Assembly: GCF_009914755.1 (NCBI RefSeq)
Contig: NC_060940.1
Origin: the human T2T-CHM13v2.0 reference genome, Homo sapiens
DNA length: 64,000 bases
Direction: 5' to 3' (one strand)
A model generated the notes under the pieces. The model was given only the letters and a program-made list of their open reading frames with translations. It ran no database searches and was not told the origin of the DNA. The translations under genes and the position numbers were made by a program. This document shows, piece after piece, positions 43,707-49,913 of the stretch (positions are counted from its first letter, which is position 1; each line of letters begins with the position of its first letter).

Positions 43707-43749
43707 GTTAAGAGAGAAGAGAGTCAGCAACAGCAAGTTTTACTCATAG
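43707..43749 (+). CDS. PLCG2: PLCG2 exon 33 coding part, ends ...LREKRVSNSKFYS-TAG
   Basis: ttttatttcAG acceptor; with exon 20 starting in codon 685, the summed exon lengths end at codon 1265 + stop, the recalled protein length. Confidence 0.97.
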
Positions 43750-44022
43750 AAGCTGGGGTATGTGTGTAAGGGTATTGTGTGTGTGCGCATGTGTGTTTGC
43801 ATGTAGGAGAACGTGCCCTATTCACACTCTGGGAAGACGCTAATCTGTGACATCTTTTCTTCAAGCCTGCCATCAAGGACATTTCTTAAGACCCAACTGG
43901 CATGAGTTGGGGTAATTTCCTATTATTTTCATCTTGGACAACTTTCTTAACTTATATTCTTTATAGAGGATTCCCCAAAATGTGCTCCTCATTTTTGGCC
44001 TCTCATGTTCCAAACCTCATTG

Positions 44023-44028
44023 AATAAA
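44023..44028 (+). terminator. proximal polyadenylation signal AATAAA
   Basis: first canonical hexamer after the stop, about 270 nt downstream. Confidence 0.75.
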
Positions 44029-47000
44029 AGCAATGAAAACCTTGATCAATTAAGCCTTCTGTTGCACGACCTGTGCAGTGAACAGGATTTCTTTTCTGGC
44101 CAAGAAGATTCTACCTCTAATGATCCAGGTAACTGATGTCCATGGAGGATGAGCTGGAAATGTAAGAAACTATTCATGAGATTCTGAAAAGGATTTTAAC
44201 TCAAAGGCAAATGATTCCATAAGGGCCCAAAGAGAAGCCCTACCCACAGGCAGCCTGCTCAGTTCAATGTACTTTAACTACCACCGGCTGCCTGCTGCAG
44301 TCCACAAGAAAATGGCTGAGTGATGGGATCTGTTCATTAAGACAATTTCTAATTAATGGTGACAGCTTGTTTTGTGACTAGAGTTACTGGGATGGAGGGT
44401 AGGAATCTTGGGGCCTCTTTGTTTTAAAAAGCCCATCAGAGAGACCAGAGCCGTGCTGCAGGGGCAGGTTCTCACTTGCCCCTGGCTCTGCCAGCTGCTG
44501 GGAGGCTCTGGCCCCACTAGTCCCTCATGGCCCTACTGAACTGGCTGGGAGGCTGCTGGAATGGCCCTTGGTCCACAGCTCTCCACAGGCAAGAGGTCAA
44601 CTGCTGCTTGAAAGAGGTAGACAAAAGTTAGGTTGATGGCGAAATGTCTCTGGGTTACCCAGTCTTCTGGAGCAGCAAGCTGAGCTTTAATGGGCTAAGC
44701 ATTAGGGTGTTACAGAAAATTTCAAATGCAGCCATCTCCCTTGGGGCAGATCTACCTAGTTCATGACAGTATGTGCGGCTGGCCAGGGCTTTACACCTCT
44801 GCATCTTAAGTTGTTAATACATACCAATAATGTAATATGGCTTTTTAAAGGAGAGGAGAGTGCTGGGTTGGGAAGGGAGGTGGTTGGTAGAGTCACAACT
44901 TCTCAATGAGTGAATTTACAGCTGATGGGAAAAGGAGTGTAACTGTGAAAAACGATGGCTGTGGTGGGGAAGAACAAACCAGCAGTAAGCCTGATGTTTG
45001 ATGTGGATGGAACTGGCCCCTAGAAACCCATCTGACCCTCCTCTTGTTACCTGAAATGCTGGGCTTAGTATGCATGTACTGCTGAAAAGCAGGGCAGAAC
45101 AAATCAGGCTCTGACCAGAAGATCCTTCTGGTCCCTTCACTCTACAAAAACTTACTGATCACCTCCACATGCCAAATACAGTGCCAAGATTTGGGGGTGT
45201 GGATGTTTAAACAAAAAGCTGTGGGTCTCATCAATCATCTCCATCCACAAGCTCCTAAAAGAAAGCCATTTACCTCGCTTGAAGCCAGGAACACAGGGAA
45301 CAGCAGTCTGGCCAAGGAAGGGCTGTTATCTGGTGCTATCACTCCAGTTACTCCTCCAACTGGGAGCTGCTATTTTATTTGGCAGTCAGCAACTGAAGAA
45401 AGAACATTCCTCTTAGTGGCAGATGTTCAAAGCAACTTTCAAGAAAGGCTAGGTGAGAAAGGCACTGGGATGAGTGCTGCAGGCACTCTGTAGCCAGGGC
45501 CCCATTAGCCTTTGGCCAGGTAGCCACCAGAACCTATTTATTGCACCTGGCATCTCCCCCAACCCCTCTCAGCTCTGTTAGGACTTCCACACAGCAGAGC
45601 TCAGGTGTTGCTGTCATTACCTCCTTTCAGCTCCTCACTTCATTCTACTTTAAAGCCACAGTGCTAAGGCCTGCATCCCCTTTCTGCCCAAATGGGTTTT
45701 TTGCTACCATATCAAAGAACCTGACATATGGCGGCATAGGAAGCAGAAGCTAAGCCTCTCTCCAGCTGCTGCTGTGTAAAATCCATGCGTGGCCAAAGAG
45801 AAGTCAGGGGATTATGACATAAATGGTGCTGGGAAGAACCCTCTGCCTAAAACTGTCTCCTTCTCCTGGTGCTACAACCGGAATCCACCATGAGAGAGTA
45901 CTTTCTTCGGTTCTTTCCTCCTGTCCTTGACAGAGTAACACGTTAATCTGGTTCTTGGTGGTGTTAGGGACTGATTCTCTCAGGAAAGGCACACATGGTA
46001 TGATGGCTCTTCCCAGAGTCTATGTGATGCTACATAACTTCAGTATCTAGCTGAGACATGCTTCCTACATGACTGTTAAAGCACAGCCAATCCAGGCCAA
46101 GAAGACTAGTAACAGGCACGTTCTGAAAGATGGAAGCAGCACTGATAGATCAAAACCACCACTGCATATGTATTACACTGTTTTTGTTCACCATTTTCCT
46201 AAGTGTGTTATTTAGAATATTGGTTATTACAAGGAAAAATAAAGTGGGGAGGCTGGTTAGGCCTTGTGAGTTTGGGAAACTTAGGTTATAAAAACTAAAT
46301 AAAGTTTTTCTACTGTGAGACTAGATGTGCAGGAGTGAAAGGTGTAGAGGGTCTTGTTTTCCAAATTCGATCTCAGAATCTTTTTGCCAGAAGTGTCTCA
46401 TGGGACTTATCTATAGTGGAACACATTTGAAGACCTACTGCTCTATTAAGAAGGCAGCCGGACAACATGTTCTAATACTTCGTATGCTTTGTGACCTAGT
46501 TAAAATCTAAACTTAAGTCGCCATGGCCAGTGGCCTTTAGATTAAGCTAGCCTTACCCCTGGGAGTATACCAGAGCTTTCCAAGGAATACACAGACTCCA
46601 GTACTCTCAGGGGAGCAGTGTTCAGAGCCTCATCTTCCTGTTATATTCTTCTCTAAGATTCATCTGCCTGAGAAAATGCCCTTTTCTCACCTTACAAAAG
46701 AAAATATGGCTGTCTCCACCTCTAGTCTTACTGTAGAGCATGTCCCAAGGTGTAAAAATTCAAAATGTGGATATTTGGAAAGTGAAAGACTTATCAACAG
46801 GGCACAAATCTTTTTGCAAATGGATTTTCCAAGTTTTTCTGGTGGTTCCAAATTTTTTGCTTTCAACAAAGTGGGAGGAACAGCCTGTAGATTTCTGAGT
46901 CTCTTAGCATGTAACTACAAAGGGGTTGGAAGAATTCAGTGATTCTGCTATCATAAAGCTTCCGTTCCCATTGATGTATCTGTGTGAACAAGGATCAACA

Positions 47001-47676
47001 TCTCCATAAATGAAATTGAAAACGGAAAATAGAATTGATGATGAACTTTGGCTCAATCTTAAGATGTTATCAATCTACATAGATGAAATAATTGTGGAGA
47101 AAAGCCCTCTTTATCTCATTAAGTGATACATTTCCAAAGAAGTTTTACTATGTTTAATAATTTAGTGAAATTTGGGCTATGTGTTTATTGATTCAGCTCA
47201 ATCCAGAGGAAAATTTTAAAGGCTTACAGCCTTAGGATTATAGGATACTATATAATACTTTTGGTACAGAGATAGAATTAAATAACATAAAAATCAAAAA
47301 TTTATTAGGCTAAAATTTTGAGGGAGAAGTGGTATGAAAATACAAATTCAAGGAGTAAAAGGAAAAGTGGGGCATTCCTTGCTACTAAAAATTGCCTTGT
47401 TCCAGGTAAGACTGATCATAAAAAAATGGCCCTGTTCATAAAATTTTTAAAAAGATCATAGTATCTATCAAATAACTTATATTAAGAACCTCCTGGGCTA
47501 AATTTAAAAAGTAATACAACAGTTTTATTTAAACATGTAGTGTCTACGGTATGCCAGCACTTTGCAGCTATTTATAATGAGAAATTTTAGATGTCAATAT
47601 AGCAATGTGCAAGAAGATAGAGATTTTCAAAATTCACTTAAGAGTATCTGAGCATAAAATGTTAAGATTGCTGATC

Positions 47677-47916
47677 GGATGTGAGGGCGATCTGGCTGCG
47701 ACATCTGTCACCCCATTGATCGCCAGGGTTGATTCGGCTGATCTGGCTGGCTAGGTGGGTGTCCCCTTCCTACCTCACCGCTCCATGTGCGTCCCTCCCG
47801 AAGCTGCGCGCTCCGTCGAAGAGGACGACCAACCCCGATAGAGGAGGACCGGTCTTCGGTCAAGGGTATACGAGTAGCTGCGCTCCCCTGCTGGAACCTC
47901 CAAACAAGCTCTCAAG
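47677..47916 (+). pseudogene. 7SK snRNA processed pseudogene (RN7SKP family), nt 1-240, 3'-truncated and tailless
   Basis: starts GGATGTGAGGGCGATCTGGCTGCGACATCTG (7SK 5' end) and follows the recalled 7SK sequence to CAAGCTCTCAAG with about 5 mismatches; perfect 13-bp direct repeat AAGATTGCTGATC at 47664-47676 and 47914-47926. Confidence 0.96.
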
Positions 47917-48401
47917 ATTGCTGATCTAGGGCCACTAAGTGATGAAGCAAAAAGGATGGCTAAAAAGGACCTCAACCCTTTTGACTTTAAAAGGAAAATA
48001 GCTTAACCTTCAACCTGTGTGACATTTAACTTTTTGAACCCAACCGTAAAAGCTATCTTCTAACCAACAAAAAGTTAATAATTACATTTGGAATTATACA
48101 GAATTAGAAAATTGGCATTTAAAAATACTCAATAATTTGTCCCTGGTTTTTAATTTTCAAAATATTTTCTTTTTGAAGAGCCAGATTCCAGTGATCCTGC
48201 CTCTCAGAAATTTCCACATTTCTTATTTTTCATTAGGCCTTAAGAAGCTGCATTTGTAAACTTGTGTTTCATTATTAAAGCTTAATTTATTTTTTATATA
48301 AATAGTATGTGCTTTGTGTACATAGAGAATTAAGTGAATGAGTCACACAGATGTTGGCTGTTGTTAATGTGAAAATTAAACAGCTGTATCACATTTTGAA
48401 A

Positions 48402-48407
48402 AATAAA
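48402..48407 (+). terminator. distal polyadenylation signal AATAAA
   Basis: canonical hexamer preceded by ATTAAA (48375), several TGTA (CFIm) motifs and U-rich sequence. Confidence 0.7.
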
Positions 48408-49518
48408 AGTTTCATCTGAATGAATATAGCAATCTGCCCAGAACTTTTTTTAAAAACTGCTATTCACCTTTTATATTCCCAAATAAAACACACACACACA
48501 TACAATAATTTAGTCATGAGATAGGTAGAGTTACAGTTATTTTTTGAAATGTGTTTTACTATCCTATTTATCCCACGTTTCTTTGGGTTACAGGTTTATC
48601 TTCAGCAAAAACTCACTCTGTGTTGAAACTCAAGTTTGTACGATTAATACTTGAGTGCTCTTCAATTTATCAGTTTTGAAAGAATGTTTAGTGTTGGAAG
48701 GAGCGAGGACCTTATAGTAAGTCCCTGTATTTCTCAGCTGAGTGATAGGCTCCCTAGAACTGTCAATCACTGCGTTTCTTGCCAACAATCCCTGGTCCAC
48801 AGGAAGCCATGTTGTATCTCATACCTCTGACCCCCAACCCCCAGCCCCCAGTGGTTGGATTAGTTACCCTGGTCCAAAGATTTAATAATAGCCTATGACA
48901 AACCTCTGCATTAGAAGATGAGCAAGGAATAGTAAAAAGCAAAGATGAAATTAGAACTGCCAAATGACCACTTTTTAAATGGATACAACCATAACTCTCA
49001 TAAAGATATATAATGAACATATGTCAGAAATCTTATTAATTAACAAAGGAACCAGTGAGATGTTCCAGCTTGTTTAAAGGAGAATGCAGAGAACAATATA
49101 TATACATACAGTATAGGTTATCCGCTATCCAGATTATCTGATTTTATACGGTTTCTCCACGTTTTATTGTCCGAATAATGCAAATTATTCCTGTCCGTAG
49201 AAATGCAAACTGTGTCCTGTGGAGATTCCATTGATCATTCCCTTGTGGATACTGATCACTGGTTTTACCAGTTTTATATCTATTAAATTTATTTCAGCAT
49301 CGCTGATGGATGTGAAATCTGACTCCTATCTTACTCCACACACAAAAATCAAGTCAGTTAGATTATAGATCAAAATATGAAAGATAAAACAATATTTCTA
49401 GAAGGTCTTCACAACATCGGCGTAGGGAAAGGTTACTTAAACAAAACTACAAAAGCAGCATCCCTGAAGGAAGACTGCTAAATTTGACTCCCCTAAAATT
49501 CAAAACTGGTTTTTATCA

Positions 49519-49913
<395 letters not shown>

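What the first reader, a model, noticed from the sequence alone, without database searches (positions are those of the whole stretch)
47677..47916. The 7SK copy may inflate apparent PLCG2 expression in RNA-seq and single-cell data
Seen: stretches identical to recalled 7SK of 79 nt (nt 1-79), 41 nt and 60 nt lie on the sense strand of a probable terminal exon. Established: 7SK is extremely abundant and nuclear, and some pipelines drop small-RNA biotypes from the annotation and assign ambiguous reads to the annotated exonic locus. Inference: true 7SK reads could be counted as PLCG2, giving spurious PLCG2-high cells or samples, especially in nuclear, damaged-cell or total-RNA libraries.
Basis: inference. 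Interest (0 to 1): 0.75.

Follow-up and report, generated by a model that had tools for sequence, protein, structure and literature searches.

The report
7SK pseudogene inside PLCG2 3' UTR
A dead copy of the very abundant nuclear 7SK RNA sits in the tail of the PLCG2 gene, and short reads from real 7SK can be counted as PLCG2 by common single-cell software, which may explain puzzling "PLCG2-high" cells.

Summary
Window 47677-47916 (+) is 7SK nt 1-240 (Rfam 259 bits). It differs from the real RN7SK gene on chr6 at five bases, leaving identical runs of 79, 41 and 60 nt. It is a promoter-less, 3'-truncated retrocopy with a perfect 13-nt target-site duplication, lying sense in the annotated PLCG2 terminal exon (RN7SKP176).

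The artefact idea is plausible but narrower than stated. In a STAR-like simulation on 53 7SK-like loci, reads of 91 nt or more never tie with the PLCG2 copy. Reads of 80 nt or less from the 7SK 5' end do, usually with only RN7SK and one chr14 pseudogene. Cell Ranger promotes a lone exonic locus among multimappers.

A 2025 preprint reports human cerebellar PLCG2 signal "primarily driven by" RN7SKP176. In 8 of 9 papers read, PLCG2 is listed together with MTRNR2L12, often in non-immune cells or across all cell types.

No read data could be examined, so the size of the effect is not shown. It is a new instance of a known kind of artefact, with practical weight for an Alzheimer's and cancer gene.

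The parts
47677..47916 (+). 7SK retrocopy (RN7SKP176), equal to 7SK nt 1-240 and lacking the 3' 91 nt
   Evidence: Rfam RF00100 259.3 bits. 235 of 240 identical to the chr6 gene.
47664..47676 (+). 5' copy of the 13-nt target-site duplication AAGATTGCTGATC
   Evidence: Perfect direct repeat, spacing 250.
47914..47926 (+). 3' copy of the target-site duplication. Its first 3 nt (AAG) are also 7SK nt 238-240, so the junction is ambiguous by 3 nt (microhomology).
47677..47755 (+). 79-nt run identical to the 5' end of real 7SK. This is the interval on which misassigned reads are expected.
   Evidence: Exact at only 3 loci among the 40 scored of 231 candidates.
47773..47813 (+). 41-nt identical run (7SK nt 97-137). 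Matters only for reads of about 40 nt or less.
47833..47892 (+). 60-nt identical run (7SK nt 157-216). Matters for reads of about 61 nt or less.
47756..47893 (+). Span holding the five diagnostic differences from 7SK: 47756 C>T, 47772 C>A, 47814 G>C, 47832 T>A, 47893 A>G (7SK base first).
43707..48424 (+). PLCG2 terminal exon. The 3' UTR starts at 43750, and the copy lies 508-747 nt upstream of the annotated 3' end.
   Evidence: Hub gene table. AATAAA at 48402 and at 44023, the latter 22 nt upstream of the end (44045) of the hub table's shorter exon 43707-44045.

Best explanation
The interval is RN7SKP176, a retrocopy of 7SK RNA. It was made by reverse transcription primed inside the RNA near nt 238-240 and inserted sense into what is now the long PLCG2 3' UTR. 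It has no 7SK promoter and no 3' hairpin, so it is not a 7SK gene and is transcribed only as part of PLCG2 (inferred).

Its practical effect is technical. The first 79 nt are letter-for-letter 7SK. Among the loci scored, that run is shared only with RN7SK itself and one chr14 pseudogene. A read carrying 80 nt or less of the 7SK 5' end therefore maps equally well to about three places.

Such reads include a 90-98-nt 10x read 2 that begins with the template-switch oligo and keeps about 60-68 nt of 7SK. They also include 36-75-nt reads in general. Cell Ranger and Space Ranger count with a gene table that omits RN7SK (recalled). They promote the one exonic locus among multimappers, which here is PLCG2.

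Because 7SK is far more abundant than PLCG2 mRNA in most cells (recalled), a small leak could dominate PLCG2 counts in non-B, non-myeloid cells. It would then track nuclear or non-polyadenylated RNA capture. Transcript-only indices without RN7SK would capture still more.

Shown here: the anatomy, the uniqueness of the 79-mer among scored loci, the tie behaviour in simulation, and the pipeline rule in print. Inferred: that such reads are numerous in real libraries and explain published PLCG2 signals.
For: Identity and anatomy.

Genome: the 79-mer is 100% identical at C6, C16 and C14 only, among 40 loci scored of 231 candidates.

Simulation on 53 distinct loci, counting read starts that tie with the PLCG2 copy: 80 of 296 at 36 nt, 44 of 282 at 50 nt, 22 of 271 at 61 nt, 6 of 257 at 75 nt, 1 of 252 at 80 nt. 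Tie sets hold 3-4 loci at 50 nt or more, below the recalled STAR limit of 10.

Sharing: 90 of 301 7SK 31-mers are present in the terminal exon.

Pipeline rule: a read aligning to one exonic locus and to other loci is given to the exonic locus with MAPQ 255 (PMC7903994 methods, passage).

Print: bioRxiv 10.1101/2025.09.08.674970 says the human cerebellar single-nucleus signal at PLCG2 was 'primarily driven by' RN7SKP176 (passage).

Co-listing: in 8 of the 9 papers read (of 15 that name both genes), PLCG2 is listed in the same comparison as MTRNR2L12/L8. The settings are an SCLC cluster, fallopian tube epithelium and stroma with Cell Ranger 7.0.1, reference GRCh38-2020-A and 90-nt read 2, valve interstitial cells, astrocytes, retinoblastoma, cholangiocyte organoids and PBMC across all cell types. 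In the last, PLCG2 was detected in 0.81-0.98 of CD8 T cells.
Against: Reads of 91, 98, 100, 125 or 150 nt from real 7SK never tie with this copy (0 of 241, 234, 232, 207 and 182 starts). Standard full-length reads are therefore safe, and the route needs shortened reads.

I saw no alignments, coverage or counts. The preprint's figure S11 is not held, and its methods are not in the held text.

The paper tally is biased, because the search required both gene names, and it has no control gene.

Some studies back PLCG2 by other means: antibody staining, immunoblots and knock-out or over-expression in SCLC, and RNAscope in neurons.

Whether the chr14 locus lies in an annotated exon could not be checked. 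If it does, the read would not be given to PLCG2.

Only 53 loci were held, from candidate lists of 231 to 273 in the DNA searches.

The omission of RN7SK from 10x references, trimming of the template-switch oligo and its length, and the copy numbers of 7SK are recalled, not from a call.
Confidence: 0.6

Rival explanations
1. The copy is real but harmless for quantification. Five mismatches are enough for modern aligners, 7SK is barely captured by oligo-dT, and PLCG2 counts are essentially true.
For: No ties for reads of 91 nt or more. Paired or long reads always cover a diagnostic base (every 91-nt read inside the copy has 1-4 mismatches). Protein-level and in-situ support for PLCG2 exists in some studies.
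Against: The preprint locates the human signal on the pseudogene itself. PLCG2 is detected in 0.81-0.98 of CD8 T cells and shifts across all cell types together with MTRNR2L12. It appears in stromal, epithelial and glial cells. RN7SK does appear as a cluster marker in a human brain dataset summarised in a review, so 7SK reads exist in such data.
Confidence: 0.2
2. Reads over the copy come from genuine PLCG2 transcripts with the long 3' UTR, or from a stable 3' UTR fragment protected by the 7SK-like fold. The signal is then biological PLCG2 expression.
For: The copy is part of the annotated exon (hub table). PLCG2 is truly expressed in B, NK and myeloid cells (recalled).
Against: The copy lies 508-747 nt upstream of the annotated 3' end, and no AATAAA or ATTAAA lies between 47277 and 48274. 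3'-tag reads of real mRNA should therefore fall mostly downstream of it (typical insert sizes recalled). This reading does not explain co-variation with MTRNR2L12, MALAT1 and NEAT1 in unrelated cell types. Isolated folding gives no sign of special stability (z 0.09).
Confidence: 0.12
3. RN7SKP176 is transcribed on its own (Pol III or otherwise) and is up-regulated in human. This is how the 2025 preprint words it.
For: The preprint's statement of 'human-specific upregulation'. A run of four T follows at 47978-47981.
Against: The 300 nt upstream do not align with the real gene's promoter, giving only scattered chance matches. The insertion is bounded by a target-site duplication, so no upstream element came with it. 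7SK's promoter is entirely upstream (recalled).
Confidence: 0.04
4. The embedded 7SK 5' domain is functional in the mRNA. It would bind HEXIM1/P-TEFb or HIV Tat, or retain the long-UTR PLCG2 mRNA in the nucleus.
For: 7SK nt 1-79 are intact, and the covariance-model alignment flags only two non-standard pairs in nt 1-108. A Tat RIP-chip study that enriched 7SK lists PLCG2 among Tat-associated mRNAs (passages).
Against: The minimum-energy fold of the copy's first 108 nt differs from that of real 7SK, and neither beats shuffles. Array cross-hybridisation with 7SK would give the same RIP result. Five substitutions look like neutral decay.
Confidence: 0.04

Closest known systems
MTRNR2L12 / MTRNR2L8 (nuclear copies of mitochondrial 16S rRNA) as single-cell 'marker genes'
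   Same: An annotated locus carries a near-exact copy of a very abundant non-coding RNA. The locus appears as a marker of odd clusters or batches. PLCG2 is listed beside these genes in 8 of 9 papers read.
   Different: That these genes collect MT-RNR2 reads is recalled, not tested here. In PLCG2 the copy is a small part of a real protein-coding gene's 3' UTR, so true and spurious signal are mixed. The exact run is only 79 nt, so only shortened reads are at risk.
RN7SKP family: 3'-truncated 7SK retropseudogenes
   Same: It ends at nt 240, like 37 of the 53 loci examined, which end at nt 236-246. It is flanked by a target-site duplication and has no poly(A).
   Different: It is one of the least diverged: 5 mismatches, third after chr14 (3) and chr2 (4) among the 53. 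It lies sense inside an annotated exon of a disease gene (hub table).
Functional 7SK RNA gene (RN7SK, chr6)
   Same: The 5' 240 nt are 98% identical, including the 5' hairpin region.
   Different: It has no upstream promoter homology and no 3' 91 nt. It is embedded in a Pol II transcript.
Cell Ranger MAPQ adjustment (a lone exonic locus is preferred among multimappers)
   Same: This is the rule that would turn a three-way tie into a confident PLCG2 count.
   Different: The rule is general. Its application to 7SK and PLCG2 is not stated in any paper found.

Membership tests
7SK RNA (Rfam RF00100), functional gene | Sequence and structure match above the gathering score | tested here: met
   259.3 bits against 35.
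7SK RNA (Rfam RF00100), functional gene | Full length, including the 3' terminal hairpin (nt ~296-331) | tested here: not met
   Homology stops at nt 240. The rest aligns only as gapped, low-probability flank.
7SK RNA (Rfam RF00100), functional gene | Upstream type-3 Pol III promoter as in the chr6 gene | tested here: not met
   The 300 nt upstream do not align with those of the real gene.
Retrotransposed small-RNA pseudogene (L1-mediated) | Target-site duplication flanking the copy exactly | tested here: met
   13-nt perfect repeat at 47664-47676 and 47914-47926.
Retrotransposed small-RNA pseudogene (L1-mediated) | Endonuclease-like target site (T-rich / AA on the bottom strand; consensus recalled) | tested here: met
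   The top strand reads TT|AAGATT at the 5' junction, so the bottom strand is TCTT/AA. The judgement was made by eye.
Retrotransposed small-RNA pseudogene (L1-mediated) | 3' poly(A) tail | tested here: not met
   The copy passes directly into the duplicated target sequence. The same truncation point is seen in 37 of 53 loci.
Read-misassignment artefact from an abundant RNA to an annotated exon | Exact shared sequence at least one read long, on the sense strand of the exon | tested here: inconclusive
   Met for reads of 80 nt or less (ties at 1 of 252 to 80 of 296 starts). Not met for 91 nt or more (0 ties).
Read-misassignment artefact from an abundant RNA to an annotated exon | Few enough equal loci for the aligner to report them, and only one of them exonic | tested here: inconclusive
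   Tie sets hold 3-4 loci at 50 nt or more. The annotation of the chr14 and other loci could not be seen.
Read-misassignment artefact from an abundant RNA to an annotated exon | Source gene absent from the counting annotation, and a pipeline rule favouring the exon | tested here: inconclusive
   The rule is found in print. The omission of RN7SK's biotype from 10x references is recalled only. A study with the pattern used GRCh38-2020-A.
Read-misassignment artefact from an abundant RNA to an annotated exon | Real data show a pile confined to the copy, and counts fall on masking | not testable with these tools
   There is only a verbal report that the signal is driven by RN7SKP176. No reads were available.

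The most novel reading that the evidence does not exclude
Much of the recurrent 'PLCG2-high' or 'PLCG2 with MTRNR2L12' signal reported in human droplet and spatial transcriptomes of non-B, non-myeloid cells is a read-out of how much 7SK RNA a library captured, not of PLCG2 expression. The settings include tumour sub-clones, epithelia, stroma, astrocytes, T cells, and the 'human-specific' cerebellar signal at an Alzheimer's risk gene. Disease enrichments and cell states built on it would need re-derivation.
Probability: 0.4. Interest if true: 0.7.

Novelty: new member of a known kind. Interest (0 to 1): 0.55.

Why it matters
PLCG2 is an Alzheimer's risk and protection gene, an immune-deficiency and drug-resistance gene, and the named marker of a reported pro-metastatic small-cell lung cancer state. 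If part of its single-cell or short-read signal is 7SK, several kinds of result inherit a technical variable: cell-type enrichment of GWAS genes, eQTL and co-expression results, cross-species 'human-specific' calls, and PLCG2-high cell states. That variable is nuclear or non-polyadenylated RNA capture and read length.

The check is cheap: inspect the NH tags and positions of PLCG2-tagged reads, then mask 240 nt or add RN7SK to the gene table. The same logic applies to other 7SK pseudogenes that share even longer exact runs with 7SK.

Tried and rejected
(1) Independent Pol III gene. Rejected: no promoter homology, and a target-site duplication bounds the copy.

(2) Thermodynamic folding of the first 108 nt of the copy and of real 7SK. 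The folds differ and both z-scores are near 0, so this says nothing for or against a retained 5' hairpin.

(3) Literature searches:
- 'exonic locus is prioritized' returned 0 papers. It was replaced by 'single exonic locus', which returned 10.
- RN7SK with MTRNR2L12 returned 3 papers, listing only, none relevant.
- PLCG2 with HIST1H4C returned 8 papers, and only the fallopian tube preprint was relevant.
- RN7SK with Cell Ranger and biotype returned 3 papers, listing only, no statement on the reference filter.
- PMC8458545 lists PLCG2 and RN7SKP5 in one microarray table without any link, so it was dropped.
- PMC10560453 gave only marker tables.

The simulation therefore rests on 53 loci.

(5) Earlier findings of this scan were not open.

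(6) Presence of the insertion in other primates, human polymorphism at the five sites, and GRCh38 against T2T differences were not testable. No such genomes were held.

(7) No supplementary files were opened, and bioRxiv supplements are closed. Marker tables there may bear on the tally.

Full report
**What is there**

Window 47677-47982 (+) matches the Rfam 7SK model at 259.3 bits, E 4.1e-73, against a gathering score of 35. A search of the window's own genome with the same model found the real gene at G000:C6:52835189-52835519 (403.5 bits). The window's copy ranked 17th of the 20 matches scored.

Aligned to the real gene, 47677-47916 equals 7SK nt 1-240 with 235 of 240 identical. After nt 240 the two sequences are unrelated. 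The differences are at 7SK nt 80 (C>T), 96 (C>A), 138 (G>C), 156 (T>A) and 217 (A>G). These are window 47756, 47772, 47814, 47832 and 47893. The identical runs are 79, 15, 41, 17, 60 and 23 nt.

All shared 19-mers in the 64-kb window lie at 47677-47898 on the + strand. No 7SK 31-mer occurs on the antisense strand of the terminal exon. By the hub's table the interval is annotated as RN7SKP176. It lies in the PLCG2 terminal exon 43707-48424, 508-747 nt upstream of the annotated 3' end.

**How it arose**

A perfect 13-nt direct repeat, AAGATTGCTGATC, flanks the copy at 47664-47676 and 47914-47926. Its first three bases at the 3' side are also 7SK nt 238-240, so the junction shows 3-nt microhomology.

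- There is no poly(A) tail.
- The target reads TT|AAGATT, which on the other strand is TCTT/AA. This resembles the L1 endonuclease site (consensus recalled).
- The 300 nt upstream do not align with the real gene's upstream region.

I read this as target-primed reverse transcription that started inside 7SK RNA near nt 238-240 (inference).

The truncation point is shared. Of 53 distinct 7SK-like loci fetched, 37 end at nt 236-246, 13 are near full length (including the gene), and 3 end elsewhere. The queries that fetched these loci were the Rfam model, nt 1-240 of the copy and nt 1-79 of the gene, so the sample is not random.

Five changes in 240 nt (2.1%) suggest an age of roughly 15-20 million years at recalled hominoid rates. 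By my own Poisson arithmetic (no call), five or more changes would be expected only about 3 times in 100 for an insertion younger than the human-chimpanzee split. The insertion is therefore probably not human-specific. I could not test this.

**Is it a 7SK gene?**

No. It passes the sequence and structure score. It lacks the 3' 91 nt with the terminal hairpin and the upstream promoter. Folding the first 108 nt alone gave different minimum-energy structures for the copy and the gene, and neither beat shuffled controls (z 0.09 and -0.07). That test says nothing either way about the 5' hairpin.

**Can real 7SK reads be taken for PLCG2?**

The 79-nt 5' run of the gene is 100% identical at three places among the 40 loci scored of 231 candidates: the gene (C6), the PLCG2 copy (C16) and a pseudogene at C14:83936334. 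Among the 53 loci, the PLCG2 copy is the third closest to the gene over nt 1-240. It has 5 mismatches, against 3 for C14 and 4 for C2:76451952.

I tiled the real 7SK into reads of 13 lengths. Each read was scored against the 53 loci with STAR-like local scoring: +1/-1, soft clipping, ties within 1, and a minimum of 0.66 of read length. The parameters are recalled. The model is ungapped along the alignment diagonals.

| Read length (nt) | Starts tying with the PLCG2 copy |
|---|---|
| 25 | 113 of 307 |
| 30 | 98 of 302 |
| 36 | 80 of 296 |
| 40 | 68 of 292 |
| 50 | 44 of 282 |
| 61 | 22 of 271 |
| 75 | 6 of 257 |
| 80 | 1 of 252 |
| 91 | 0 of 241 |
| 98 | 0 of 234 |
| 100 | 0 of 232 |
| 125 | 0 of 207 |
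| 150 | 0 of 182 |

At 50-80 nt the tie sets hold three or four loci, mostly {RN7SK, C14, PLCG2}.

Genome-wide alignment of full-length modern reads therefore separates the copy from the gene. Only reads carrying 80 nt or less of 7SK sequence are ambiguous, and they come chiefly from nt 1-79.

Such reads do exist (recalled practice):
- A 10x read 2 that begins at the cDNA end carries the roughly 30-nt template-switch oligo. This leaves about 60-68 nt of the RNA's 5' end from a 90-98-nt read.
- Some 10x runs use reads of about 55-60 nt.
- Older bulk, CLIP, RIP and footprint libraries use 25-50 nt.

If the index holds no RN7SK at all, more is captured. In that case 90 of 301 7SK 31-mers are in the PLCG2 exon. 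Every read lying within nt 1-240 aligns with at most 5 mismatches, for example 141 of 232 starts at 100 nt.

**The pipeline rule**

A methods passage describing Cell Ranger states the rule. A read aligning to one exonic locus and also to other loci is assigned to the exonic locus with MAPQ 255 (PMC7903994, passage). The phrase 'single exonic locus' occurs in 10 papers. That 10x reference gene tables leave out RN7SK's biotype is my recollection. No call confirmed it (one search gave nothing).

If the C14 copy is not exonic, the three-way tie resolves to PLCG2. I could not see annotation outside the window.

**What is in print**

Searches for PLCG2 with RN7SK found 14 papers (12 listed), with 7SK found 6, and RN7SKP176 alone found 2 held copies of one work. 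I judged the rest from the listings. I read passages only in PMC4086691, PMC8458545 and PMC10560453, none of which links the two.

Only one work links the two: bioRxiv 10.1101/2025.09.08.674970 (passages). It reports that the human-specific microglial enrichment of Alzheimer's genes in cerebellar single-nucleus data 'was primarily driven by' RN7SKP176. [quoted passage not shown] It treats this as up-regulation of the pseudogene, not as misassigned 7SK reads. Its figure S11 is not held, and its methods are not in the held text.

No paper found states the misassignment mechanism, within this library and these three searches.

**Circumstantial pattern**

Fifteen papers name both PLCG2 and MTRNR2L12. 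I read passages in nine; six were not read. In eight of the nine the two genes appear in the same marker list or comparison.

- The SCLC recurrent cluster has PLCG2 as top gene, and its high-PLCG2 module includes MTRNR2L8 and MTRNR2L12. The pipeline was SEQC with 'multi-mapping read resolution'.
[quoted passage not shown] The study used 10x v3.1, a 90-nt read 2, Cell Ranger 7.0.1 and GRCh38-2020-A.
- Aortic valve interstitial cluster VIC9.
- An astrocyte list that also contains NEAT1.
- A retinoblastoma cluster with MALAT1.
- Cholangiocyte organoids.
- Vaccine PBMC classifiers.
- Spaceflight PBMC, where both genes move 'across all cell types' and PLCG2 is detected in 0.81-0.98 of CD8 T cells.

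The ninth paper (Parkinson's brain) lists the two genes in different cell types, and it validated PLCG2 by RNAscope.

This tally is biased by the search itself and has no control gene. Its weight lies in the cell types involved, not in the count. That MTRNR2L12 collects mitochondrial rRNA reads is recalled. The SCLC study also shows PLCG2 protein by staining and blots, and effects of knock-out and over-expression. These stand apart from the RNA counts.

**Verdict**

The element is an annotated, ordinary 7SK retropseudogene.

It also needs narrowing. The expected pile is on 47677-47755, made of multimapping reads without mismatches. Full-length reads of 90 nt or more mapped to a whole genome are not at risk.

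I put 0.6 on the artefact being real and material in default 10x-type pipelines. I put about 0.4 on it accounting for much of the published non-immune 'PLCG2-high' signal.

It is a new instance of a known kind of artefact, partly noticed in one preprint. It has practical consequences for a well-studied disease gene.

Noticed in passing
L001-L080 (53 distinct loci of G000): 37 of 53 7SK-like loci end at 7SK nt 236-246, the same truncation point as the PLCG2 copy. This suggests a preferred internal priming site for reverse transcription.
   Followed up: partly
L011 (G000:C14:83936334-83936573); L016 (C12:112243985-112244223); L010 (C2:76451952-76452192); L009 (C22:43045927-43046194): These pseudogenes share longer exact runs with real 7SK than the PLCG2 copy does. 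C14 is identical over nt 1-162 and C12 over nt 88-232. They tie with RN7SK for whole 91-100-nt reads. If any lies sense in an annotated exon, that gene would be more exposed than PLCG2. Their annotation could not be seen.
   Followed up: partly
G000:C22:21958884-21959121 (-) and C22:21802737-21802974 (+): Two 7SK pseudogene copies have identical scores and extent. They look like one insertion carried in an inverted segmental duplication.
   Followed up: no
window 49671-49820: An Alu-like element gives sub-threshold hits to Metazoa_SRP (48.4 bits against 70), mir-1268 and mir-3135 models.
   Followed up: no
window 47677-47784: A Tat RNA-immunoprecipitation array study that enriched 7SK lists PLCG2 among Tat-associated mRNAs (PMC4086691, passages). 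The 7SK copy could explain this by real binding or by cross-hybridisation.
   Followed up: partly
window 43707-48500: Poly(A) signal hexamers in the terminal exon: AATAAA at 44023, 46238, 46298 and 48402; ATTAAA at 47277, 48274 and 48375. None lies between 47277 and 48274, so no obvious 3' end is placed just after the 7SK copy.
   Followed up: yes
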